A stretch of 40,940 nt of DNA from Escherichia phage K30. Numbering within the stretch: the first letter of the stretch is position 1; each line of letters begins with the position of its first letter. Made by a program: the position numbers and the translations under genes. The stretch is from sequence record NC_015719.1, one strand, 5' to 3'. The notes under the pieces are model-generated. The model saw only the letters and a list, made by a program, of their open reading frames with translations, was not told the origin of the DNA and ran no database searches. Below are positions 1-40,940 of this stretch, in pieces.

Positions 1-193
1 TCTCACAGTTTACACTTTTGGTTATCCCCCGGTACCCTCTAAGTTAGCCCAAAGTAACCATAGGCCACCCTAAACCTTCGGTTTAACCTTAGGTTGGACT
101 GTTGGGAACCTTGGGTGATACTATATGTAGTGGTTAGTGTGACCTTGGGATACTATATGTTGATCTCTCTGTATCCCTATCTGTTGGTACTCT

Positions 194-224
194 CTAAGTA
201 TCCACTAAGTATCCACTAAGTAAC
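194..224. repeat. Tandem 11-bp repeat CTAAGTATCCA (about 2.7 copies)
   Basis: Read directly: ctaagtatcca ctaagtatcca ctaagtaac; position is analogous to the short repeats next to the T7 left terminal repeat. Confidence 0.7.
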
Positions 225-334
225 AACCTGAGGTTAGACCTGAGGACATCCATCGACACTATACCTAAGGTTAACTATGCGTCTAACGTTTAGTTACTAT
301 AAGGCTATTGGTGACCATTGTCCATACACCAATC

Positions 335-357
335 AATTAGGTCACACTATAGGGAGA
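335..357 (+). promoter_or_regulatory. Phage RNAP promoter (phiOL-like), aattaggtcacactatagggaga
   Basis: Matches the 23-bp consensus shared by the other 12 promoters; +1 G at about 352. Confidence 0.8.
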
Positions 358-459
358 CACTTAAAGTATTACTAAGAGACCTTTACCATAAAACTACTAT
401 CACTATAGGTCTAACTATAAGACTAACTATAGGTCTAACTAAAAGTTTAACTTTAGGTG

Positions 460-488
460 TTGACATTCAGCTTACGCTATGAGACATT
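460..488 (+). promoter_or_regulatory. Candidate host sigma70 early promoter (T7 A1-like)
   Basis: TTGACA at 460-465, 17-bp spacer, weak -10 GACATT; aligns with the T7 A1 region from memory. Confidence 0.35.
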
Positions 489-593
489 AGCAACCGTTGA
501 GAGACACAACGTCACCAACAACCAGACAATACCGCGAGTTATCTGGTTAGACTGAAGGTCTCAAGTAGTCATCAACCGGACATACGAAAGTGG

Positions 594-622
594 TTGACTC
601 AACGATGAACAAGTAGTAAGAT
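594..622 (+). promoter_or_regulatory. Candidate host sigma70 early promoter (T7 A2/A3-like)
   Basis: TTGACT at 594-599, 17-bp spacer, -10 TAAGAT at 617-622; resembles T7 A3. Confidence 0.45.
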
Positions 623-723
623 GTACCACAGATTCACAGCAACGAAGTACCGCTACCTAGTAGCATCGCTCTTTAACAATATAGTTTGTGTCTTGATAGG
701 CTTACTCACAAAGGTGAACTATT

Positions 724-888
724 ATGACTAACGCACAACGTAAACGCTATGAAGCATTACAAGAGAAACTTGCTGTTGCTTATGCCGCTTGGCAAGCTAA
801 CACAGACAAGAGCAAACACGATAAACTTTACAGTAAAGTGGTTGCAATTAATGCTAAAATAGATAAACTTGTGAATAGTACCTTATAA
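724..888 (+). CDS. Hypothetical small early protein (54 aa, MTNAQRKRYEALQEKL...)
   Basis: ORF below the track threshold; ATG preceded by aaaggtga; lies downstream of the host-type promoters and is flanked by inverted repeats. Confidence 0.35.
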   Translation: MTNAQRKRYEALQEKLAVAYAAWQANTDKSKHDKLYSKVVAINAKIDKLVNSTL

Positions 889-1109
889 GATAGTTGCTGG
901 CACTAGCCGGCCTATCAAGGCACAAACCAAGCTCTTTAACAATTTGGATTAGTCGCTGATATGTATACCACCGCAATAGTGTTTAACTAGTGGTCACATT
1001 CAGGTCTCTGGCAAGGTACGCCCTGCCACCCTGATGGTTAGGCATTGCGCCTAATGAGAGTGACCATAATGATAACCACTAACTATCAATTAACTGAAGG
1101 ATATACACC

Positions 1110-28892: not shown

Positions 28893-31800
28893 ATGAGCTA
28901 CGATAAGTCCAAACCTAGCGATTACGATGGCATCTTCCAGAAGGCAGCAGACTCTCATGGGGTCTCCTATGACCTCCTGCGTAAGTTATCGTTTAACGAA
29001 TCATCCTTCAAACCTAAGGCCGTCTCTAAGACTGGACCTAAGGGCATCATGCAGTTCACCCGCAACACGGCCCGAGCTATGGGCCTTAACGTGACAGATA
29101 GTGACGACGATGGGCGATACAACCCAGAGTTAGCTATTGACGCTGGCGCTAAGCTACTTGCTAGTCTCGTTAAGAAGTACAATGGGGATGAACTTAAAGC
29201 GGCCCTAGCGTACAACCAAGGGGAAGGACCAGCGGGTGCTCCCCAGCTTCAAGCTTATGATAATGGAGACTTCGGGTCTATCTCGGAGGAAGGACGTAAC
29301 TATATGCGCAAGTTGCTGGACGTGGCCAAGAGTCCTCGCTCTGGCGCTCTGGAAGAGTTCGGTGGTATCACCCCAAAGGGTAAAGGGATTCCCGCAGAGG
29401 ATGCCTTCAAGGGCATCTCCAATGCTGGCAAGGTAGGTACCGAACTGCCGGAGTCCCATGGGTTCGACGTTGAGGGTGTAGCTCAGGAAGCACCCAACAC
29501 TCCATACGCTAAGGACTTCTGGGAGAAGACCGGGACGACTATTGAAGAGTACAACTCTCGGTCTACCTTCTTCGGGTTCAGTGATGCTGCAAGTGCTGAG
29601 CTTCAAAACTCTACGCTTGGTATAGCCTTCCGTGCAGCACGAGCTGATGATGGATATGATGTGTTCAAGGACACAATGACCCCGACTCGCTGGAACTCAT
29701 ACGCTCCATCCAAGGAGGACTTACAGAAGCTGCGCGACTCCGGGTTACCTCCGAGTTACTACGGTGTGGTGACTGGTGGTGACGGTGAGAACTGGGACTC
29801 ACTCATTAAGCTGGCCAAGGATAACTTCGAGGCTGACCAACGTGCCGCTGAGGCTGGAACTGGCGCGAAACTCGCTGCTGGTATCGTTGGTGCTGGTGTA
29901 GACCCGCTCAGCTATGTTCCTCTGGTCGGTGTGGCCGGGAAGGGACTCAAGGTGGTCAATAAGGCCTTGCGTGTAGGCGCACAGGCTGGAGCACTCAACG
30001 TTGCCTCTGAGGGAATCCGTACGTCTATCGCTGGCGGTGAGGCTCACTACGCTGATGCAGCACTAGGTGGGTTACTGTTCGGCGCAGGAATGTCGGCTCT
30101 CAGTGATGCTGTGGCCGCTGGTATCCGTAAGGCACGTGGAGTCGACTCTGTGAACGAGTTCGCTGGCCCAGCATTACGAATGGAAGCACGAGAGACTGCC
30201 ATCAACACTGGTGGTCACGACACCTCGACGCTACCTCCAGAGAATTTCTCGTTCGAGCAGAGTCACAGAGGTGTTCCATTTGCTGACCACCCGACCGAAG
30301 AGGGAGCAGTGGTTCTGGCCAATGGTTCCATCCTGAGCGATACCAACCCGCTTAACCCAAGGACTCAACGTGACTTCGCAGAGATTGACCCAGAGCGTGC
30401 AGCTCCCGGTATCAAACTAGGTGGGTTCACTGAGATTGGCCTGAAGACCTTAGGGTCCAAGGATGCTGGTGTTCGTGCAATCGCTCAGGACCTCGTGCGC
30501 TCACCTACAGGGATGCAATCAGGGTCTAGCGGTAAGTTCGGTGCGACAGCTTCGGATATCCACGAGCGACTCCATGCGACTGACCAACGGATGTATAACC
30601 AACTGTATGACGCTGTTGACCGTGCCATGAAGGACCCAGAGTTCTCCGTAGGTGAGCAGAAGATGTCACGCAGAGCCATCCGTCAGGAAGTCTACAAGCG
30701 TGCTGCCTTGGCGATTGAGCGCCCAGAGTTACAGGCTGATTTGACCAAAGGTGAACGTGAGGTGATGGACCTGCTGAAAGAGCACTTCGACACCAAGCGT
30801 GAACTTATGGAGCAGCCGGGTATCTTTGGTAACGCTGACGCCGTGAGCGTCTTCCCCGGCAGTCGTCACAAGGGAACCTACGTACCTAACGTGTACGACA
30901 GGGGAGCTAAGGAGCTGATGACTCAGAAACTGGGTGGACCTGAAGGACTACAACAGGCTATCGCGCAGAGCTGGCTTACCAGTTACCGAGTGAGACCTGA
31001 GGTCAAGGCGCGCGTCGATGAGTACCTTATGGAACTAAACGGCTACAAGTCGGTTGACCAAGTGACACCTGAGGTGGTCCAGAAGCACGCTATGGATAAG
31101 GCGTATGGTATCAGCCACACCGAGGACTTCACAGCATCCAGTGTCATTGATGACAACATCACAGGTCTGGTAGGTATTGAGAACAACTCATTCCTTGAAG
31201 CCCGTAACATGTTTGATAGTGATATCCCGGTTACCTTACCGGATGGGTCAACCTTCAGTGTCAACGACCTGCGGGACTTCGACATGTCACGGATTATCCC
31301 AGCGTACGACCGTCGAGTTAACGGTGATATCTCCATAATGGGAGGTAGTGGTAAGACCACGAAGCAGCTCAAGGATGAAATCATGGCGTTAGACAAACGG
31401 GCCGAACGTAAGGGACAGCTTAAGGGTGAAGTGGAAGCACTGAAGGATACCGTTAAGATTCTCACTGGACGTGCTCGACGCAACAATGACACAGCCTTCG
31501 AGACAGCTATGCGTTCCCTGAATGACCTAGCGTTCTTCGCTAAGAACTTCTATATGGGTCCACAGAACCTCACCGAGATTGCTGGGATGCTGGCTAAGGG
31601 TAACGTCAAGGCGATGCTCCACGGTATCCCAACGCTGCGAGACCTTGCCACCAGAACCTCTCCGGTGTCCGGTAGTGAACTCCGTGAACTACATGGGGCG
31701 CTGTTCGGTAAGGAACTCGACCAGTTAATACGTCCGGGACGTGAGGACATCGTACAGCGAATCCGTGAGGCTTCCGATACCAGTGGAGCCATGTCGTCAG

Positions 31801-32858
31801 TCATTGGCACCATCAAGTTTGGTACTCAGGAGCTGTCAGCCCGTTCTCCTTGGACCAAGATGCTTAATGGTACGGCTAACTACATTCTGGACACTGCCCG
31901 TCAGGGTGTGCTAGGTGATGTGGCTGGTGCTGCCCTCGGTGGCAAGGGTTCCAAGTTTGGCAAAGAGAACTTCCTTAAAGCTGCCTCTATTAGTCCTGAG
32001 CAGTGGAAGGGAATCAAGCAGCTTTTTGTCGACCATGCGACTCGTGATGCTAACGGTCAGTTCTCCATCAAGGACAAGAAGGCTTTCAGTCAGGACCCGA
32101 GGGCGATGGACCTGTGGCGTCTTGCTGATAAGGTTGCCGATGAAACCATGCTGAGACCACACAAGGTATCCCAGCAGGATTCCAAGGCATACGGTGCTGG
32201 TGTTAAGATGGCTATGCAGTTCAAGAACTTCACCATCAAATCACTAAACGCCAAGTTCATTCGGTCCTTCTATGAGGGTTACAAGAACAACCGTGCTATC
32301 GACATGGCGTTGACCCACGTGTTGTCTCTTGGTATCGCCGGGACTTACTTTGCGATGCAGGCCCACGTGAAGGCTTACGGTCTCCAAGAGTCTCAGCGTA
32401 AGGACTACCTGAAGAAAGCCTTGAACCCGACCATGCTGGGATACGCAGCGTTGACTCGAAGTTCCCACACTGGTGCCCCGCTGTCCATCGTCTCGATGAT
32501 TGCTGGTGCCGCTGGGTTCCAAGACGCCAACATGCTGCGTTCCACCATCTTACCGAAGGAGGAACAGTTCCAGAAGAAAGACGGAGCGTCCAAAGGTCGC
32601 GCTGAGTCGAGCAATCTTGCGGGTAACTTGGGGTCTCAGGTTCCAGCGCTAGGTTACGTAGGGAACGTTATTGCGACCGCTAAGAACGCCTACGGTGTTG
32701 CTACAGCTCCCAACAAGCCGACCGAGCGTGACTACATGACTGGCCTGATGAACTCCACCAAAGAGCTTGTGCCTAATGACCCACTGACCCAACAGCTCAT
32801 CATGAAAATTTATGAGGCTAACGGGGTCACCATCAAGCAGCAGCCGAAGCCTAACTAA
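28893..32858 (+). CDS. 16: Internal virion protein D with N-terminal lytic transglycosylase domain (T7 gene 16)
   Basis: 1321 aa; N-terminus carries a soluble-lytic-transglycosylase-like block (GPKGIMQFTRNTARAMG...ALAYNQGEG); synteny. Confidence 0.95.
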   Translation: MSYDKSKPSDYDGIFQKAADSHGVSYDLLRKLSFNESSFKPKAVSKTGPKGIMQFTRNTARAMGLNVTDSDDDGRYNPELAIDAGAKLLASLVKKYNGDELKAALAYNQGEGPAGAPQLQAYDNGDFGSISEEGRNYMRKLLDVAKSPRSGALEEFGGITPKGKGIPAEDAFKGISNAGKVGTELPESHGFDVEGVAQEAPNTPYAKDFWEKTGTTIEEYNSRSTFFGFSDAASAELQNSTLGIAFRAARADDGYDVFKDTMTPTRWNSYAPSKEDLQKLRDSGLPPSYYGVVTGGDGENWDSLIKLAKDNFEADQRAAEAGTGAKLAAGIVGAGVDPLSYVPLVGVAGKGLKVVNKALRVGAQAGALNVASEGIRTSIAGGEAHYADAALGGLLFGAGMSALSDAVAAGIRKARGVDSVNEFAGPALRMEARETAINTGGHDTSTLPPENFSFEQSHRGVPFADHPTEEGAVVLANGSILSDTNPLNPRTQRDFAEIDPERAAPGIKLGGFTEIGLKTLGSKDAGVRAIAQDLVRSPTGMQSGSSGKFGATASDIHERLHATDQRMYNQLYDAVDRAMKDPEFSVGEQKMSRRAIRQEVYKRAALAIERPELQADLTKGEREVMDLLKEHFDTKRELMEQPGIFGNADAVSVFPGSRHKGTYVPNVYDRGAKELMTQKLGGPEGLQQAIAQSWLTSYRVRPEVKARVDEYLMELNGYKSVDQVTPEVVQKHAMDKAYGISHTEDFTASSVIDDNITGLVGIENNSFLEARNMFDSDIPVTLPDGSTFSVNDLRDFDMSRIIPAYDRRVNGDISIMGGSGKTTKQLKDEIMALDKRAERKGQLKGEVEALKDTVKILTGRARRNNDTAFETAMRSLNDLAFFAKNFYMGPQNLTEIAGMLAKGNVKAMLHGIPTLRDLATRTSPVSGSELRELHGALFGKELDQLIRPGREDIVQRIREASDTSGAMSSVIGTIKFGTQELSARSPWTKMLNGTANYILDTARQGVLGDVAGAALGGKGSKFGKENFLKAASISPEQWKGIKQLFVDHATRDANGQFSIKDKKAFSQDPRAMDLWRLADKVADETMLRPHKVSQQDSKAYGAGVKMAMQFKNFTIKSLNAKFIRSFYEGYKNNRAIDMALTHVLSLGIAGTYFAMQAHVKAYGLQESQRKDYLKKALNPTMLGYAALTRSSHTGAPLSIVSMIAGAAGFQDANMLRSTILPKEEQFQKKDGASKGRAESSNLAGNLGSQVPALGYVGNVIATAKNAYGVATAPNKPTERDYMTGLMNSTKELVPNDPLTQQLIMKIYEANGVTIKQQPKPN

Positions 32859-32879
32859 TTAGGACACACTATAGGGAGA
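32857..32879 (+). promoter_or_regulatory. Phage RNAP promoter (phi17-like), aattaggacacactatagggaga, with 5' leader hairpin
   Basis: Consensus match; transcript begins gggagacc-gatt-ggtttccc. Confidence 0.85.
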
Positions 32880-32919
32880 CCGATTGGTTTCCCTCCTCAT
32901 TCAACTAAAGGAGGTCACA

Positions 32920-35631
32920 ATGGACCAAGACATTAAAACAGTCATTCAGTACCCAGTAGGGGCCACTGAGTTCGACATCCCGTTCGACTACCTGTCCCGC
33001 AAGTTTGTCCGTGTGTCGCTGGTGACAGGCGACAACCGAAGACTGCTGAGTAACATCACTGAGTACCGCTACGTGTCTAAGACCAGAGTGAAGCTCCTTG
33101 TGGAGACCGCTGGGTTCGACCGTGTGGAAATCCGTAGGTTCACCTCGGCATCTGAGCGAATCGTTGACTTCAGTGATGGCTCGGTTCTCCGTGCGGCTGA
33201 CCTTAACGTGTCTCAGATACAGTCGGCACATATCGCAGAGGAAGCACGTGATGCGGCACTTATGGCAATGCCTCAGGATGATGTCGGTAACCTTGATGCA
33301 CGTAACCGTAGAATCGTGCGGCTGGCACCGGGCATTGATAGTACAGATGCAATCAATAAGAACCAACTGGACACCACCTTAGGTGAGGCTGGTGGTATTC
33401 TGTCACAAGTCAAGGATACCCAGAAGGACATTCAGAACTACATTCAGAAGTTCGGCGATGACACCGCTATGGTTCGTGGAGTAAATTGGGTGTATAACGG
33501 TGGGTCTGCCATTGGTGGAGAGACCTCCTTTATCATCGACAAGTCAGCGCCAGTGTTCGCCGTACCATACATTGAGGTAAACGGAAGCCGTCAGTTCCGA
33601 GACTGGCAGTACGAGTATGACCCTGCAACCAAGCGTGTCACTCTGGTTAAACCTCTGGAGGCTGGAGACTTTGTTGTATGCCTCACTACCGAGAATAAGT
33701 TACCTTTAGAAGACCTGCTGGCTAGTACAGGAGGTGCCGATTCCATTGGTAAGGCTGGAGGTGGTACAGTTCAGGATGGTCTGGATGCAACGATACATGG
33801 TACTGATGTCCACCGAGACACTGTGACTCCCGGTAAACTGGACACACTCCTTGTGTACAATGGGACCAACGCTGGGCGCGACCTACGTGGCCATGAGTTC
33901 GTAATGCCCCACGGCACATTCTCCGCGACTCGCATCTTGAGAACTCGTGGTATCTCAGCGGCTGAATCTAAGTACACTGGGTTCACTTGGCGCGGACAGG
34001 GTAGTTCGTTCACCAAGTTGGTCCACCCTGCGACTGGTGGTCAGGGTGATATTGCATTCATGGACTACCTGAAGGATGTTACGATGTCTGGGTTCATGAT
34101 GGACAACACCGCGCTAGGTCAGGGGACTTCCAATCAGGATACCCGTAACGGTCAGTTCTGGATTCGACATTCGGTTGACTCCTACTTCGACGACCTGCGC
34201 TTCGCTGGTGCTGACGCCCTTACGTTCTGTCTGGACCACTGTAAGAACATCTACTCGACAAACCTCAAGGTAGACTATCAGCTGCGCTATCCGACTGGTA
34301 CAGGTAAGTCCCCGCTAATAGTTGGTGACTACTCGGAGCAGTGCATGTTCATCGGCGGCTACGTTAAGACCGTGTCACCTGACGGAACCATAAAGTATGC
34401 TGGTGACCTCGCAGATAACGACCAAGCGGATGATACCAAATGGGCGTTCATTAACCTGTACGGATTGACGTTTGAACAGAAGCCTAACTCTAACGCCTGT
34501 ATGTGGCAAGAAGGGGAGGGTGCACCATCCAACGCTCACTTCATCGGTATGAACTACATCAACAACGGTGTAGGTCATGGTGTGTCTGAGAAAGCTGTGG
34601 GTACTGACATCGGGTCTACCTTCCGTCAGGCTCAGGTTCGTGCTGTGTGGAACCGTGCTGAGTACATCTCAATCGGCAGTCACTTCATTAACAACGATGC
34701 CAAGTATCCTGCTGGCACTGGTGGCGCAGGTACTGCGGCTGCTGGTGGTGTTCATAATGACAACGCCAAGTTCACCTCTCTGGTTGGTGACTACTTCCGT
34801 GGTAACTTCGCGGATTATACAGACTACACAGGGGCATCTGGTGTTAACCCGGAGAACTCAACCCACATCACCAACGCAAAGTTGACATCCATCATTCGTA
34901 CATCGTCCTCCAGTACCTCTCAGCATTTAGCCATTGTGAACTGCCAGTTAACTTCTGCGGGTCGTATTAGCGGCGGCGGTAACGGGAGACTCCACGTGTC
35001 CGTTGTGGCATCTCACTGCGTCGGGCCTCTGGGGCAGTTTGGTCACGGACAGTCCGAGACGTACCTTGACGTCATAAACTCTACGTTCACTGCCGCTGGT
35101 AGCACTGAGGCTATGATTACCCAGTCAGGTGTTGGTAATATCTCGTTCGCTAACTCCACGTTCCGTGATTATATCCGTGTGGTAGATGGCTCGCATACCC
35201 GTGTTACCTTCCGTAACTGTACGTTCTACACTTGTACTTTCACTGAGGACGACCGAAAAGCTCGCTACGTTAACTGCCGATTTATCTCGTGCACTGACGC
35301 TCCAGACTCCTTCGGCCTCAACTTTGCGGCAGACTCTCTGGACCGCCCTAGCTCACTTCGAGTTAACGTAACGTTAACTGCTGGCGGCAGCTATACGTTC
35401 CCGGCTTGGGTACTTCAGGGTCGTGGTGCTTACTTCATCAACGTGGGTGGTAATGGTGCCAACCTTCCTGCCTGCGCTGGTATCATTGGTAAGAGTAGCG
35501 CGACTGGTAGTGGTGTATGGACCCCTCAGTGGGAAAGCACTCCTAGTAGTATTGTTGTATCTTGGCCATCCAACGGATACATTACTGTTACGGCCACAAC
35601 TGCTGGCAACTACACAATCGGCGTCCACTAA
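32920..35631 (+). CDS. 17: Tail fibre / tailspike with T7 gp17-like N-terminal anchor and beta-helix (depolymerase-like) C-terminal region
   Basis: N-terminal 150 aa resemble T7 gp17 ([48 protein letters not shown]); C-terminus has repetitive N.TF / NCTFYTCTF segments typical of parallel beta-helix enzymes; start at ATG 32920 with AAGGAGGT RBS. Confidence 0.9.
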
Positions 35632-35644
35632 TAAGGAGAACCAC

Positions 35645-37198
35645 ATGTTAGACAAATTGAATCAGCCGAAAGGCTCAACCATTGGTGTGCTCAAGGATGG
35701 GCGCACCACCCAAGAGGCCATTGACGAACTCACTAATGATGTAACAGGAAGTATCACAACTACCCGGTATGCATCGAGTGCTTCCCAGGCGCTGTTCCCG
35801 AAGCTCATTGACAAGATGACTGCGTATCGGCATGGTGTCTCTGGATTCCAAGACAAGTTTCGAATCTACGGGTATGGCTCCTCTGTAGGCAATGGGGCAA
35901 CGATTGGTGGAAACTCCTCGCCAAATACCCCAGTAGCAAAATTCTTTGAGCACTTCCAGAGGACGGTCAACAAGGCTGGAATCTACCCATTCGAATACTC
36001 GAACAAGTCGGTGGATGGTTCCAACATCAACGATTTCCTCAACCGGGAGTGGCCTGCGACTGTCGCCACTGGTGTCTTCCCGGACCTAGCGGTTTTCGCT
36101 TACGGTATGAATGACTTCCCCTCGGCGCAGTATAATGCTGGGATGACCTTCGGGGCCAACGGTTTCAAACAGAGACTTCGCAATGCAATACAGAAGGTTC
36201 GAGACGCTGGCGGAGATGTAGTTCTCCTGACCACCCCACACCCAAACATTGAGGAATACTCGTGGGAACTCCCGTCAAGTATAGACATGGTGTGGCCCCA
36301 GTTTGCTGCCAAACCCGTGGCTGGTGACGTTCTTATTCCACCAGTGTCACAATCAAATGTGTCCTTCGACTTCATGGGCAAACGCATCACTCAGGGTGTT
36401 CGCTTCCTGAGAGGTAACGATGCGATGCGTGAGGTTGCTGTGGAGATGGGTTGCGTCTTGATTGACGTTGAGAAATACTGGTTCGAGGCCGTTGGTAAGT
36501 ATGGGAACGTACTACTGTTCGACCGCGTGCCAGCAATGCAGACAGTGCACCCTAACCTACTGGGTCACCAGCAGTCGTACTGGCGGGCAATCGAAGAGTT
36601 CTTCAACAATGTGGATTCCTCTGGATGGATTGCTCCAGACGCTAAGTTGAACCAGACGCTGGATGTTGGCGGTAACGCCCTGAACCCCGCGAAGATGGAA
36701 GCTGATGTCGACCTTCAGGCCAACGGCATCCGTCAGCGTGCATTCGTGCGCCGGGATAAGTCTGGCCGTGTCATGGAGGAGCTGACGCAGGACAGCAGGG
36801 TCAAGCGCACATCCTACACGGTGTCAGACCCTACAGTATCAGCTCCGGGATATAGCCTAACATGGGACGAGTGGTTTACCCGCACCAAGGGATTATTCAC
36901 CAGTGGGGAGACTTTGGGCATCCCTGTAAATAACCGCACCGAAGGTCGACTATTAGTCACAGCGTGGATTTCAGGCCAGACTGGCTGGACCCAGCTTGAG
37001 GACTACTTAGTCTCTAACCGTGAGGGTGTTGTATTGGTCTCCAAGATTGGCTCTTTAGATAATACTCCACCGGCTGGTGGTACAGGGACCAACGGTCAGC
37101 GCCTGTTCACCGTGTCCACCTCTGCGAACAATGTCGTGGTTAATATCCTATCGGATAACGCCACTGTGAAGTTCAAACTGGACACCTTTGGGGCATAA
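35645..37198 (+). CDS. Second receptor-binding protein candidate with SGNH/GDSL-hydrolase-like motifs (putative esterase tailspike)
   Basis: 517 aa from ATG 35645 with TAAGGAGAA RBS; motifs YGYGSS, YGMNDF, VHPNLLGH in the order expected for an SGNH fold; sits between gene 17 and the holin. Confidence 0.6.
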   Translation: MLDKLNQPKGSTIGVLKDGRTTQEAIDELTNDVTGSITTTRYASSASQALFPKLIDKMTAYRHGVSGFQDKFRIYGYGSSVGNGATIGGNSSPNTPVAKFFEHFQRTVNKAGIYPFEYSNKSVDGSNINDFLNREWPATVATGVFPDLAVFAYGMNDFPSAQYNAGMTFGANGFKQRLRNAIQKVRDAGGDVVLLTTPHPNIEEYSWELPSSIDMVWPQFAAKPVAGDVLIPPVSQSNVSFDFMGKRITQGVRFLRGNDAMREVAVEMGCVLIDVEKYWFEAVGKYGNVLLFDRVPAMQTVHPNLLGHQQSYWRAIEEFFNNVDSSGWIAPDAKLNQTLDVGGNALNPAKMEADVDLQANGIRQRAFVRRDKSGRVMEELTQDSRVKRTSYTVSDPTVSAPGYSLTWDEWFTRTKGLFTSGETLGIPVNNRTEGRLLVTAWISGQTGWTQLEDYLVSNREGVVLVSKIGSLDNTPPAGGTGTNGQRLFTVSTSANNVVVNILSDNATVKFKLDTFGA

Positions 37199-37207
37199 GG
37201 AGGTACC

Positions 37208-37411
37208 ATGTTGTCCCTAGACTTCAACAACGAAGTTATCAAGGCGGCTCCCATTGCGGGGGTCGCTGGGGCTGACGGTGTAGCGAGGCTCTTCTGGGGC
37301 CTCTCACTCAACGAGTGGTTCTACGTCGCGGCAATCGCCTACACAGTGGTTCAGATTGGTGCCAAGGTAGTCGACAAAATCATTGACTGGAAGAAAGCAA
37401 ATAAGGAGTAA
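37208..37411 (+). CDS. 17.5: Class II holin (T7 gene 17.5)
   Basis: 67 aa; recalled near-identity to T7 gp17.5 (MLSLDFNNE.IKAAPI, LSLNEWFYVAAIAYTVVQIGAKVVDK.IDWKKANKE). Confidence 0.9.
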   Translation: MLSLDFNNEVIKAAPIAGVAGADGVARLFWGLSLNEWFYVAAIAYTVVQIGAKVVDKIIDWKKANKE

Positions 37412-40540: not shown

Positions 40541-40940
40541 GTGTATATCTCACAGTTTACACTTTTGGTTATCCCCCGGTACCCTCTAAGTTAGCCCAAA
40601 GTAACCATAGGCCACCCTAAACCTTCGGTTTAACCTTAGGTTGGACTGTTGGGAACCTTGGGTGATACTATATGTAGTGGTTAGTGTGACCTTGGGATAC
40701 TATATGTTGATCTCTCTGTATCCCTATCTGTTGGTACTCTCTAAGTATCCACTAAGTATCCACTAAGTAACAACCTGAGGTTAGACCTGAGGACATCCAT
40801 CGACACTATACCTAAGGTTAACTATGCGTCTAACGTTTAGTTACTATAAGGCTATTGGTGACCATTGTCCATACACCAATCAATTAGGTCACACTATAGG
40901 GAGACACTTAAAGTATTACTAAGAGACCTTTACCATAAAA
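40541..40940. repeat. Right copy of 400-bp direct repeat (includes a second copy of the phiOL-like promoter at about 40875-40897)
   Basis: Identical to positions 1-400 by direct reading. Confidence 0.8.

What the first reader, a model, noticed from the sequence alone, without database searches (positions are those of the whole stretch)
32920..35631. Tail fibre combines a T7-like anchor with a beta-helix depolymerase-like C-terminus, implying a dual receptor-binding system
Only the N-terminal 150 aa resemble T7 gp17. The remainder is longer than T7's fibre and contains repetitive N.TF / CTF segments typical of right-handed parallel beta-helix polysaccharide depolymerases. With the following esterase-like gene this suggests two enzymatic receptor-binding proteins, as in capsule-targeting Klebsiella podophages.
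Basis: partly seen in the sequence, partly recalled or inferred. Interest (0 to 1): 0.6.

Follow-up and report, generated by a model that had tools for sequence, protein, structure and literature searches.

The report
Known KP32-type dual receptor-binding proteins
This Klebsiella T7-like phage carries the well-described two-protein host-recognition set of KP32-like phages: a tail-anchored capsule-degrading spike that carries a second, esterase-type spike, so the finding is correct but ordinary.

Summary

It is homologous to the solved XD3 domain of CBA120 TSP4 and to Kp9 gp42. The next gene (35645-37198, 517 aa) starts with the KP32gp38-type docking peptide, followed by an SGNH esterase domain and a beta-sandwich.

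This is the "KP32viruses group A" anchor-branch architecture (Latka 2019). The same gene pair is catalogued in KpV289 and KpV766 (94% and 87% aa identity to KpV289). A 96.7%-identical orthologue of the beta-helix module (RCIP0018_RBP1) has been shown experimentally to depolymerise KL20, KL112 and KL132 capsules. SGNH spikes in Przondovirus have also been described.

The one open point is the substrate of the esterase spike. Novelty: already known. Interest is low.

The parts
32860..32879 (+). Phage RNA-polymerase promoter (K11/KP32-type consensus) driving the receptor-binding-protein genes
   Evidence: Exact match to TAGGACACACTATAGGGAGA. It is one of 12 same-strand matches in the window, against 0 expected. 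It lies 40 nt upstream of the RBP1 start.
32908..32914 (+). Ribosome-binding site AAGGAGG of RBP1
   Evidence: Read directly from the sequence, 5 nt upstream of ATG 32920.
32920..35631 (+). RBP1: anchored tailspike/depolymerase, 903 aa (stop included)
   Evidence: Translation. PHROG 24786 'tail fiber protein' matches aa 1-903 of 903. 94% aa identity to KpV289 orf45.
32920..33381 (+). RBP1 aa 1-154: T7 gp17-like N-terminal anchor that inserts into the tail
   Evidence: Pfam PF03906 at aa 3-154, E 5.7e-38. T7 gp17 chains 7boz, 8e4g and 8dsp match aa 4-153.
33466..33696 (+). RBP1 aa ~183-259: XD (T4 gp10-like) beta-jellyroll branching domain, the docking platform for RBP2
   Evidence: phmmer matches CBA120 TSP4-N 7rfo/7rej residues 264-330 (the XD3 domain) at E 6e-14. 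Profile A3 gives E 1e-30 to 7rej, 3e-30 to Kp9 gp42 7xy1 and 2e-19 to CBA120 TSP2 6w4q. The XD3 fold is T4 gp10-like per PMC8825819. Latka 2019 places the domain at aa 197-256.
33697..33786 (+). End of the conserved N-terminal module and recombination junction (about aa 289)
   Evidence: The RBP1 proteins of YMR1 (771 aa) and PQ7254 (818 aa) are 74-75% identical over aa 1-288/289 and unrelated afterwards. The 7xy1 alignment decays after about aa 290-320.
33895..35289 (+). RBP1 aa ~326-790: right-handed parallel beta-helix (pectin-lyase-like) depolymerase domain, including the N[CS]x[FL] rungs at aa 674-785
35311..35628 (+). RBP1 aa ~798-903: C-terminal beta-sandwich domain
   Evidence: Longer strands at model residues 509-613, pLDDT about 90. 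No Peptidase_S74 or chaperone hit in Pfam.
35633..35639 (+). Ribosome-binding site AAGGAGA of RBP2. The intergenic gap is 13 nt, so the genes are probably co-transcribed
   Evidence: Read directly from the sequence.
35645..37198 (+). RBP2: branched secondary spike with an SGNH esterase domain, 517 aa (stop included)
   Evidence: PHROG 18703 'tail fiber protein' matches aa 1-517 of 517. 87% aa identity to KpV289 orf46.
35645..35737 (+). RBP2 aa 1-31: conserved docking peptide (MLDKLNQPKGSTIGVLKDGRTTQEAIDEL)
   Evidence: Matches the N-terminus of KP32gp38 (6tku, MLDNFNQPKGSTIGVLKDGRTIQEAFDSL) and 7vul. The role of this peptide was shown experimentally in KP32/K11 (PMC13352976).
35792..36619 (+). 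RBP2 aa ~50-325: SGNH/GDSL hydrolase domain (Ser80, Gly125, Asn156, His302)
   Evidence: Pfam PF13472 at 41.5 bits against cut-off 32.9. Invariant columns G76, G78, S80, G125, G154-M-N156 and H302-P-N across 62 homologues. AF2 pLDDT 84. Foldseek finds acetyl-xylan esterases 7ddy and Axe2 at E 5e-9.
36662..37195 (+). RBP2 aa ~340-517: C-terminal all-beta domain(s)
   Evidence: Strands at aa 365-515, pLDDT 85-95. Foldseek gives a local match to the C-terminal part of Acinetobacter phage tailspike 6e1r (119 columns, 23% identity).

Best explanation
The two genes encode the branched host-recognition apparatus typical of KP32-like (Przondovirus) Klebsiella podophages.

RBP1 (903 aa) is presumably a trimer. 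It plugs into the tail through its T7 gp17-like N-terminal domain (aa 1-154). A single T4 gp10-like XD domain (aa ~183-259) follows. Distal to about aa 289 it carries an exchangeable cassette made of a right-handed parallel beta-helix and a C-terminal beta-sandwich. This cassette binds and cleaves capsular polysaccharide, most likely of the KL20/KL112/KL132 group.

RBP2 (517 aa) has no tail anchor. Its first ~30 residues dock onto the XD domain of RBP1, so each of the six tail positions carries one RBP1 and one RBP2. The body of RBP2 is an SGNH esterase with a beta-sandwich. It most likely removes O-acetyl groups from a surface polysaccharide (capsule or O-antigen) without depolymerising it, serving as a second recognition and processing activity.

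Shown here: the ORFs and their signals, the domain composition, the folds, and homology to characterised proteins. Shown in the literature for close homologues: the docking mechanism, and depolymerase activity and specificity of RBP1. Inferred: trimeric state, the stoichiometry on the virion, esterase activity of RBP2 and its substrate.
For: Anchor: PF03906 at aa 3-154.

Conserved N-module: aa 1-321 match Kp9 gp42 (7xy1) at E 4e-147.

XD domain: aa 187-255 match CBA120 TSP4 XD3 (7rej/7rfo) at E 6e-14. A profile of the module hits 7rej, 7xy1 and TSP2 6w4q at E 1e-30 to 2e-19. The XD3 fold equals T4 gp10 XD2/XD3 (PMC8825819).

Specificity: the module is 96.7% identical to RCIP0018 RBP1 and 96.8% to pK2420. 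[quoted passage not shown] KpV289 and KpV766 are cited as KL20 phages (PMC9960094).

Docking peptide: RBP2 aa 1-31 match KP32gp38. The branching-domain/peptide interaction was validated by engineering in KP32, K11 and KP34 (PMC13352976).

SGNH: Pfam above its cut-off, conserved block residues, and a fold match to carbohydrate acetyl-esterases. Related SGNH spikes from Klebsiella prophages hydrolyse pNP-acetate (PMC13123978).

Synteny: gp16 - RBP1 - RBP2 - holin, identical to KpV289.

Modularity: this RBP1 cassette pairs with many different RBP2 proteins, and this RBP2 pairs with three different RBP1 proteins.
Against: No activity was measured for these exact proteins.

The catalytic residues of the beta-helix were not identified, and a beta-helix fold alone does not prove enzymatic activity. 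Kp9 gp42, for example, shows no activity on K2 capsule.

The SGNH block V lacks the canonical Asp: the sequence is Q299-x-x-H302. The enzyme would therefore work as a Ser-His dyad or use another acid.

No solved structure or characterised enzyme is close to RBP2 in sequence. The best PDB sequence hits are E 1e-4 over short stretches.

Direct sequence comparison of the XD module with T4 gp10 itself was not significant (hhalign E 0.043 over 15 columns; no gp10 hit). The 'T4gp10-like' label therefore rests on the link through CBA120 TSP4 and on published HHpred and structure work.
Confidence: 0.87

Rival explanations
1. The architecture is the same, but RBP2 targets O-acetyl groups on the LPS O-antigen rather than on capsule. 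This would parallel E. coli phage G7C gp63.1 and act as a second-step receptor once RBP1 has cleared the capsule.
For: In G7C, the SGNH spike deacetylates O-antigen and is docked on a T4gp10-like domain of the anchored spike (cited). A 2026 preprint suggests non-capsular targets for Przondovirus SGNH spikes. RBP2 homologues at 50-59% identity occur in E. coli, K. oxytoca, Raoultella-like and Brenneria prophages, a broader spread than one K-type. SGNH domains are less K-locus-specific than beta-helices (PMC13123978).
Against: SGNH receptor-binding proteins were GWAS predictors of specific K-loci (KL2, KL8, KL11, KL16, KL24, KL55) in Klebsiella prophages, which argues for capsule substrates. No sequence similarity to G7C gp63.1 was detected in the PDB sequence searches.
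Confidence: 0.3
2. RBP1 and RBP2 act on the same acetylated capsule in sequence. Deacetylation by RBP2 would condition or extend the substrate range of the RBP1 depolymerase, rather than adding an independent host.
For: The pair recurs together in KpV289, KpV766 and this window. The orthologous RBP1 acts on several related K-loci (KL20, KL112, KL132), which could differ in decorations. In Przondovirus, phages with SGNH spikes have narrow host ranges.
Against: The RBP1 cassette works alone: RCIP0109-R1, carrying only RCIP0018_RBP1, infects KL20/KL112. About 25 phages pair it with unrelated RBP2 proteins. The SGNH RBP2 also pairs with two unrelated RBP1 cassettes, in YMR1 and PQ7254. I could not establish whether the K20 capsule is acetylated.
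Confidence: 0.12
3. RBP2 is a catalytically dead SGNH-fold adhesin that only binds a glycan.
For: Block V lacks the Asp of the canonical DxxH (Q299). Latka 2019 flagged the KpV289/KpV766 second RBP as having 'lower probability of depolymerizing activity'.
Against: The nucleophile Ser80, oxyanion residues Gly125 and Asn156, and His302 are invariant across 62 homologues down to 28% identity, which indicates selection on catalysis. Ser-His dyad SGNH esterases exist (established knowledge of the CE2 family). Two Klebsiella SGNH fibres tested were active.
Confidence: 0.08
4. RBP1 is a T7-type fibre, or a non-enzymatic beta-helix adhesin, with no depolymerase function.
For: The N-terminal domain is T7-like. 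No catalytic residues were assigned here. Some beta-helix spikes show no activity on the capsules tested (Kp9 gp42).
Confidence: 0.03

Closest known systems
Klebsiella phages vB_KpnP_KpV289 and vB_KpnP_KpV766 (orf45/orf46; YP_009215498/YP_009215499), listed under KP32viruses group A in Latka et al. 2019
   Same: The gene pair, order and lengths are the same: 903 aa, then 511 aa against 517 aa here. aa identity to KpV289 is 94% for RBP1 and 87% for RBP2. The flanking genes match: internal virion protein upstream and holin downstream.
   Different: Nucleotide identity across the pair is only about 86%. RBP2 here has a 6-aa insertion and a more diverged last ~100 aa. The genome backbone is closer to VLCpiA3d (94.8%).
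RCIP0018_RBP1 (Prz_RBP1 cluster targeting KL20/KL112/KL132; Adv Sci 2026, PMC13073335), and the equivalent protein of the K20 phage pK2420
   Same: The beta-helix cassette is 96.7-96.8% identical over aa 301-903, with the same anchor and XD architecture.
   Different: Those phages carry a different RBP2, annotated as endo-N-neuraminidase-like or hypothetical, instead of the SGNH spike.
KP32 gp37/gp38 (K3- and K21-specific depolymerases), the prototype anchor-branch pair
   Same: T7-like anchor plus T4gp10-like domain in RBP1. RBP2 has a ~29-aa docking peptide, 24 of 29 residues identical to KP32gp38. The gene position is the same.
   Different: Both catalytic cassettes are unrelated. KP32gp38 is a beta-helix, whereas RBP2 here is an SGNH esterase. 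KP32gp37 has a C-terminal chaperone domain, which is absent here.
E. coli phage G7C gp66/gp63.1
   Same: It works the same way: an anchored spike with T4gp10-like domain(s) carries a second spike that is an SGNH esterase deacetylating a surface polysaccharide (literature quoted).
   Different: No detectable sequence homology of RBP2 to gp63.1. G7C has two XD domains and a different anchor. Docking there uses a charged surface rather than the KP32-type peptide.
T7 gp17 tail fibre
   Same: The N-terminal tail-attachment domain (aa 4-153).
   Different: T7 gp17 is 553 aa, with a coiled-coil shaft and a small tip domain, and has no enzyme and no branching domain. Nothing beyond aa 153 matches.

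Membership tests
KP32viruses group A anchor-branch dual-RBP system (Latka 2019) | RBP1 begins with a T7 gp17-like anchor (pfam03906, about aa 1-154) | tested here: met
   PF03906 at aa 3-154, E 5.7e-38, 130.5 bits against cut-off 25.2.
KP32viruses group A anchor-branch dual-RBP system (Latka 2019) | A T4gp10-like (XD) branching domain follows the anchor, within a ~300-aa conserved N-module | tested here: met
   aa 187-255 are homologous to the solved CBA120 TSP4 XD3 domain (7rej/7rfo: E 6e-14 single sequence, 1e-30 profile) and to Kp9 gp42 7xy1. XD3 has the T4 gp10 XD fold. The direct hhalign and hmmsearch tests against T4 gp10 were not significant.
KP32viruses group A anchor-branch dual-RBP system (Latka 2019) | A second RBP gene lies immediately downstream, between the internal virion protein D gene and the lysis (holin) gene | tested here: met
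   Gene order is 28893-32858 (gp16-like, 1321 aa), RBP1, RBP2, then 37208-37411 (holin position). This is the same order as annotated in KpV289.
KP32viruses group A anchor-branch dual-RBP system (Latka 2019) | RBP2 lacks an anchor but starts with the ~29-aa peptide conserved across the group | tested here: met
   aa 1-31 align to the KP32gp38 (6tku) and 7vul N-termini. There is no PF03906 hit in RBP2.
KP32viruses group A anchor-branch dual-RBP system (Latka 2019) | Physical attachment of RBP2 to RBP1 on the virion | not testable with these tools
   Shown by engineering for KP32, K11 and KP34 (PMC13352976) and for RCIP0109 chimeras, but not for this phage.
Right-handed parallel beta-helix (pectin-lyase-like) phage capsule depolymerases | Beta-helix fold in the central or C-terminal part | tested here: met
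Right-handed parallel beta-helix (pectin-lyase-like) phage capsule depolymerases | Cleavage of capsular polysaccharide (halo, CPS degradation) | not testable with these tools
   Shown for the 96.7%-identical RCIP0018_RBP1 on KL20, KL112 and KL132.
Right-handed parallel beta-helix (pectin-lyase-like) phage capsule depolymerases | Identified catalytic acidic residues in an inter- or intra-subunit groove; homotrimer | not tested
   Only invariant acidic positions were listed. In numbering of the aa 290-903 fragment these are D163, D181, D207, D210, D212, D216 and E242. No trimer model or residue mapping was possible.
SGNH/GDSL hydrolases (carbohydrate esterase type) | Pfam PF13472 above the gathering threshold, and an SGNH fold | tested here: met
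   41.5 bits against 32.9. Foldseek E 5e-9 and TM (target-normalised) about 0.7 to acetyl-xylan esterases 7ddy and Axe2.
SGNH/GDSL hydrolases (carbohydrate esterase type) | Block I Ser, block II Gly, block III Asn, block V His | tested here: met
   S80 (G78-S79-S80), G125, G154-M-N156 and H302 are invariant in 62 homologues.
SGNH/GDSL hydrolases (carbohydrate esterase type) | Block V Asp three residues before the His (DxxH triad) | tested here: not met
   The position is Q299 (…AMQTVH302PN…). The family consensus there is Q/G. This implies a Ser-His dyad or an alternative acid.
T7 gp17-type tail fibre (whole protein) | Coiled-coil shaft and C-terminal tip domain homologous to gp17 | tested here: not met
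   T7 gp17 matches end at aa 153, and the remainder is XD domain plus beta-helix. The protein shares only the anchor domain.
G7C gp63.1-type esterase tailspike | Sequence homology to gp63.1 | tested here: not met
   No such chain was recovered by phmmer (E<=0.01) or by the profile search (E<=1). The resemblance is functional and architectural only.

The most novel reading that the evidence does not exclude
The SGNH spike is not an independent host-range extender. Instead it is a capsule-editing partner of the depolymerase: it strips O-acetyl groups from KL20-family (KL20/KL112/KL132) capsules or from the underlying O-antigen. Under this reading the pair forms a two-enzyme, sequential glycan-processing machine on a single tail position, using a Ser-His dyad variant of the SGNH site.
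Probability: 0.12. Interest if true: 0.45.

Novelty: already known. Interest (0 to 1): 0.13.

Why it matters
For annotation, the two genes can be named with confidence. The first is an anchored capsule depolymerase, probably KL20/KL112/KL132-specific. The second is a branched SGNH esterase spike. The phage's likely host capsule type can be predicted from sequence, which is useful for phage-therapy matching and for modular RBP engineering. Scientifically it adds nothing new to the anchor-branch model. The only open question it touches is what Przondovirus SGNH spikes deacetylate, and whether they matter for infection.

Tried and rejected
(1) Direct test of 'T4 gp10-like'. I fetched T4 gene 10 and ran hhalign with a 249-sequence profile of the module against it. 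The result was only 15 aligned columns at E 0.043. A profile search of PDB sequences did not recover gp10 either. I therefore rely on the significant homology to CBA120 TSP4 XD3, whose gp10-like fold is published.

(2) A T7-like fibre for the C-terminus was rejected by the fold results.

(3) A C-terminal intramolecular chaperone, as in KP32gp37, was rejected because no Pfam hit was found.

(4) I looked for whether K20 capsule is O-acetylated, to judge the cooperative model. The literature searches gave nothing usable.

(5) I looked for a solved close relative of RBP2, including G7C gp63.1. None was found.

(6) The longer mechanical ORFs starting at TTG 32884 and GTG 35423 were rejected as starts. 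Homologues begin at MDQ… and MLD…, and the RBS sequences precede those ATG codons.

(7) Weak Pfam hits to YadA_stalk, LD_SV2 and DUF2093 are below their cut-offs and were not used as evidence.
Full report
**What is there.** The window is a complete T7-like genome (about 40.5 kb unique) of a Klebsiella Przondovirus. All large ORFs are on the + strand. It has 12 phage-polymerase promoters of K11/KP32 type. The first 25 kb are 94.8% identical to Klebsiella phage VLCpiA3d and about 90% identical to many other Klebsiella podophages. The finding's ORF is real. ATG 32920 to TAA 35631 gives 903 aa, preceded by AAGGAGG and by a perfect promoter at 32860-32879. Thirteen nucleotides after its stop, a second ORF follows with its own RBS (35645-37198, 517 aa). 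Holin, small terminase, Rz and large terminase come next, the same order as annotated in KpV289.

**Checking the observation.** Pfam finds the T7 tail-fibre N-terminal domain only at aa 3-154 (E 5.7e-38). Solved T7 gp17 chains (553 aa) align only to aa 4-153. The N.TF/CTF motifs are present at aa 720, 745, 766, 767 and 772. They belong to an N[CS]x[FL] series at 674, 720, 745, 766 and 785. There are five matches against 0.26 expected, and none of 5000 shuffles reaches five.

**The region between anchor and helix.** Residues 1-321 match the cryo-EM structure of Klebsiella phage Kp9 'type I tail fibre' gp42 (7xy1) at E 4e-147. Within this region, aa 187-257 also match unrelated spikes. An exhaustive search with aa 155-300 found 213 representative proteins. 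The ~70-aa core occurs once in KP32-type proteins but twice in tandem in 108 of the 148 proteins that matched aa 180-262 in a follow-up phmmer scan. A profile of this core hits CBA120 TSP4-N (7rej/7rfo, residues 261-334) at E 1e-30, Kp9 gp42 at 3e-30 and CBA120 TSP2 (6w4q) at 2e-19. Residues 261-334 of TSP4 are the XD3 domain. Its crystal structure has the beta-jellyroll fold of T4 gp10 XD2/XD3 and serves as the binding platform for partner spikes (PMC8825819). My direct comparison with T4 gp10 was not significant. The 'T4gp10-like' label thus rests on this transitive link and on published HHpred probabilities of 82-86%.

**The second protein.** Its first 31 residues (MLDKLNQPKGSTIGVLKDGRTTQEAIDEL) are nearly those of KP32gp38. 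This is the 'conserved peptide' that docks RBP2 on the branching domain. That interaction has been verified by deletion and swapping in KP32, K11, KP34 and RCIP0109. The rest is an SGNH hydrolase, with PF13472 above its threshold. S80, G125, N156 and H302 are invariant in 62 homologues. The AF2 model has pLDDT 84, and the best fold matches are acetyl-xylan esterases. A beta-sandwich region follows. The canonical Asp of block V is replaced by Q299. No close relative has a solved structure, and G7C gp63.1 is not detectably related in sequence. Homologues at 50-60% identity are common in Klebsiella and E. coli prophage tail fibres behind other anchors. Two such Klebsiella SGNH fibres were recently shown to be active esterases (PMC13123978).

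**How it most likely works.** Six RBP1 trimers sit on the tail through the T7-like anchor. Each presents one XD platform that holds an RBP2 trimer by its N-terminal peptide. The RBP1 beta-helix degrades capsule. The cassette is 96.7% identical to RCIP0018_RBP1. That protein forms halos on KL20, KL112 and KL132 strains but not on capsule-null mutants, degrades purified CPS, and transfers KL20/KL112 tropism when moved to another phage. The K20-specific phage pK2420 carries the same cassette at 96.8% identity. KpV289 and KpV766 are cited as KL20 phages. RBP2 most probably deacetylates a polysaccharide. Whether the substrate is capsule or O-antigen, and whether this adds a host or assists infection of the same host, is unknown. 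The modules assort independently. The RBP1 cassette occurs in about 28 podophages, mostly with other RBP2 proteins. The SGNH RBP2 occurs in KpV289 and KpV766, and also in YMR1 and PQ7254, whose RBP1 proteins share only aa 1-289 with this one. This favours independent function over obligatory cooperation.

**Comparison with what is known.** This is the 'KP32viruses group A, anchor-branch' system of Latka et al. 2019. Their Table 1 already lists the 903-aa first RBP of KP32_196, KpV766 and KpV289. It also lists the 511-aa second RBP of KpV766 and KpV289, flagged as having a lower probability of being a depolymerase. The proteins here are 94% and 87% identical to those of KpV289. SGNH spikes in Przondovirus, always alongside a beta-helix depolymerase, are described in a 2026 preprint and noted in Beamud et al. 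2023. Functionally the pair parallels G7C gp66/gp63.1. It is not a T7-type fibre beyond the anchor.

**Verdict.** The feature is already known and, for RBP1, already validated experimentally in a near-identical orthologue. Interest is low. The residual novelty lies only in the unknown substrate and role of the esterase spike.

Noticed in passing
window 1-393 and 40548-40940: The two ends of the window are an exact 393-bp direct repeat. It starts with the T7-like left end TCTCACAG… and contains a phage promoter (338-357 and 40885-40904). From my own recollection, this is longer than the 160-230 bp terminal repeats of T7 and T3. It could be a genuine long terminal repeat or an assembly or deposit overlap.
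   Followed up: partly
window 1-25000 versus 32920-37198: The genome is a mosaic. The backbone is closest to VLCpiA3d (94.8%), which does not appear among the 35 records carrying the RBP1 cassette. The RBP genes are closest to HMGUkp3 (RBP1, 90% nt) and to KpV289/KpV766 (both genes, 84-86% nt).
   Followed up: partly
window 33697-33786 (RBP1 aa ~260-289): There is a sharp recombination junction. The RBP1 proteins of YMR1 and PQ7254 are 74-75% identical up to aa 288/289 (…GGTVQDGLD) and unrelated afterwards.
   Followed up: yes
window 33466-33696 (RBP1 aa 183-259): The XD branching module occurs once here and in other KP32-type RBP1 proteins. It occurs as two tandem copies in 108 of the 148 representative proteins that matched aa 180-262. 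This fits one docking site here against two or more in Ackermannviridae-like or jumbo-phage spikes.
   Followed up: partly
window 36539-36559 (RBP2 aa 299-305): SGNH block V reads Q-T-V-H-P-N. The canonical Asp at His-3 is absent in this protein and in the family consensus, suggesting a Ser-His dyad or a non-canonical acid.
   Followed up: partly
window 36662-37195 (RBP2 C-terminus) and 35311-35628 (RBP1 C-terminus): The RBP2 C-terminal beta domain gives a local Foldseek match (119 columns, 23% identity) to Acinetobacter phage vB_ApiP_P1 tailspike 6e1r. That structure is also the top Foldseek hit of the RBP1 model. Relative to KpV289, RBP2 has a 6-aa insertion (PPAGGT region, aa ~475-480), and its last ~100 aa are the most diverged part.
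   Followed up: no
window 35134-35295 (RBP1 aa 739-792): A sub-threshold Pfam hit to the SV2 luminal domain (a pentapeptide-repeat beta-helix; 18.4 bits against cut-off 29) coincides with the N.TF/CTF rungs. This probably reflects short regular coils at the end of the helix.
   Followed up: no
window 32920-35631: Nucleotide identity to KpV289 is about 86% while protein identity is 94% (96.5% in the cassette). Most differences are therefore synonymous, indicating strong purifying selection on the depolymerase.
   Followed up: no
window 1-1000: GC content is 0.40 at the left end against about 0.52 elsewhere. This fits a non-coding, promoter-rich early region.
   Followed up: no
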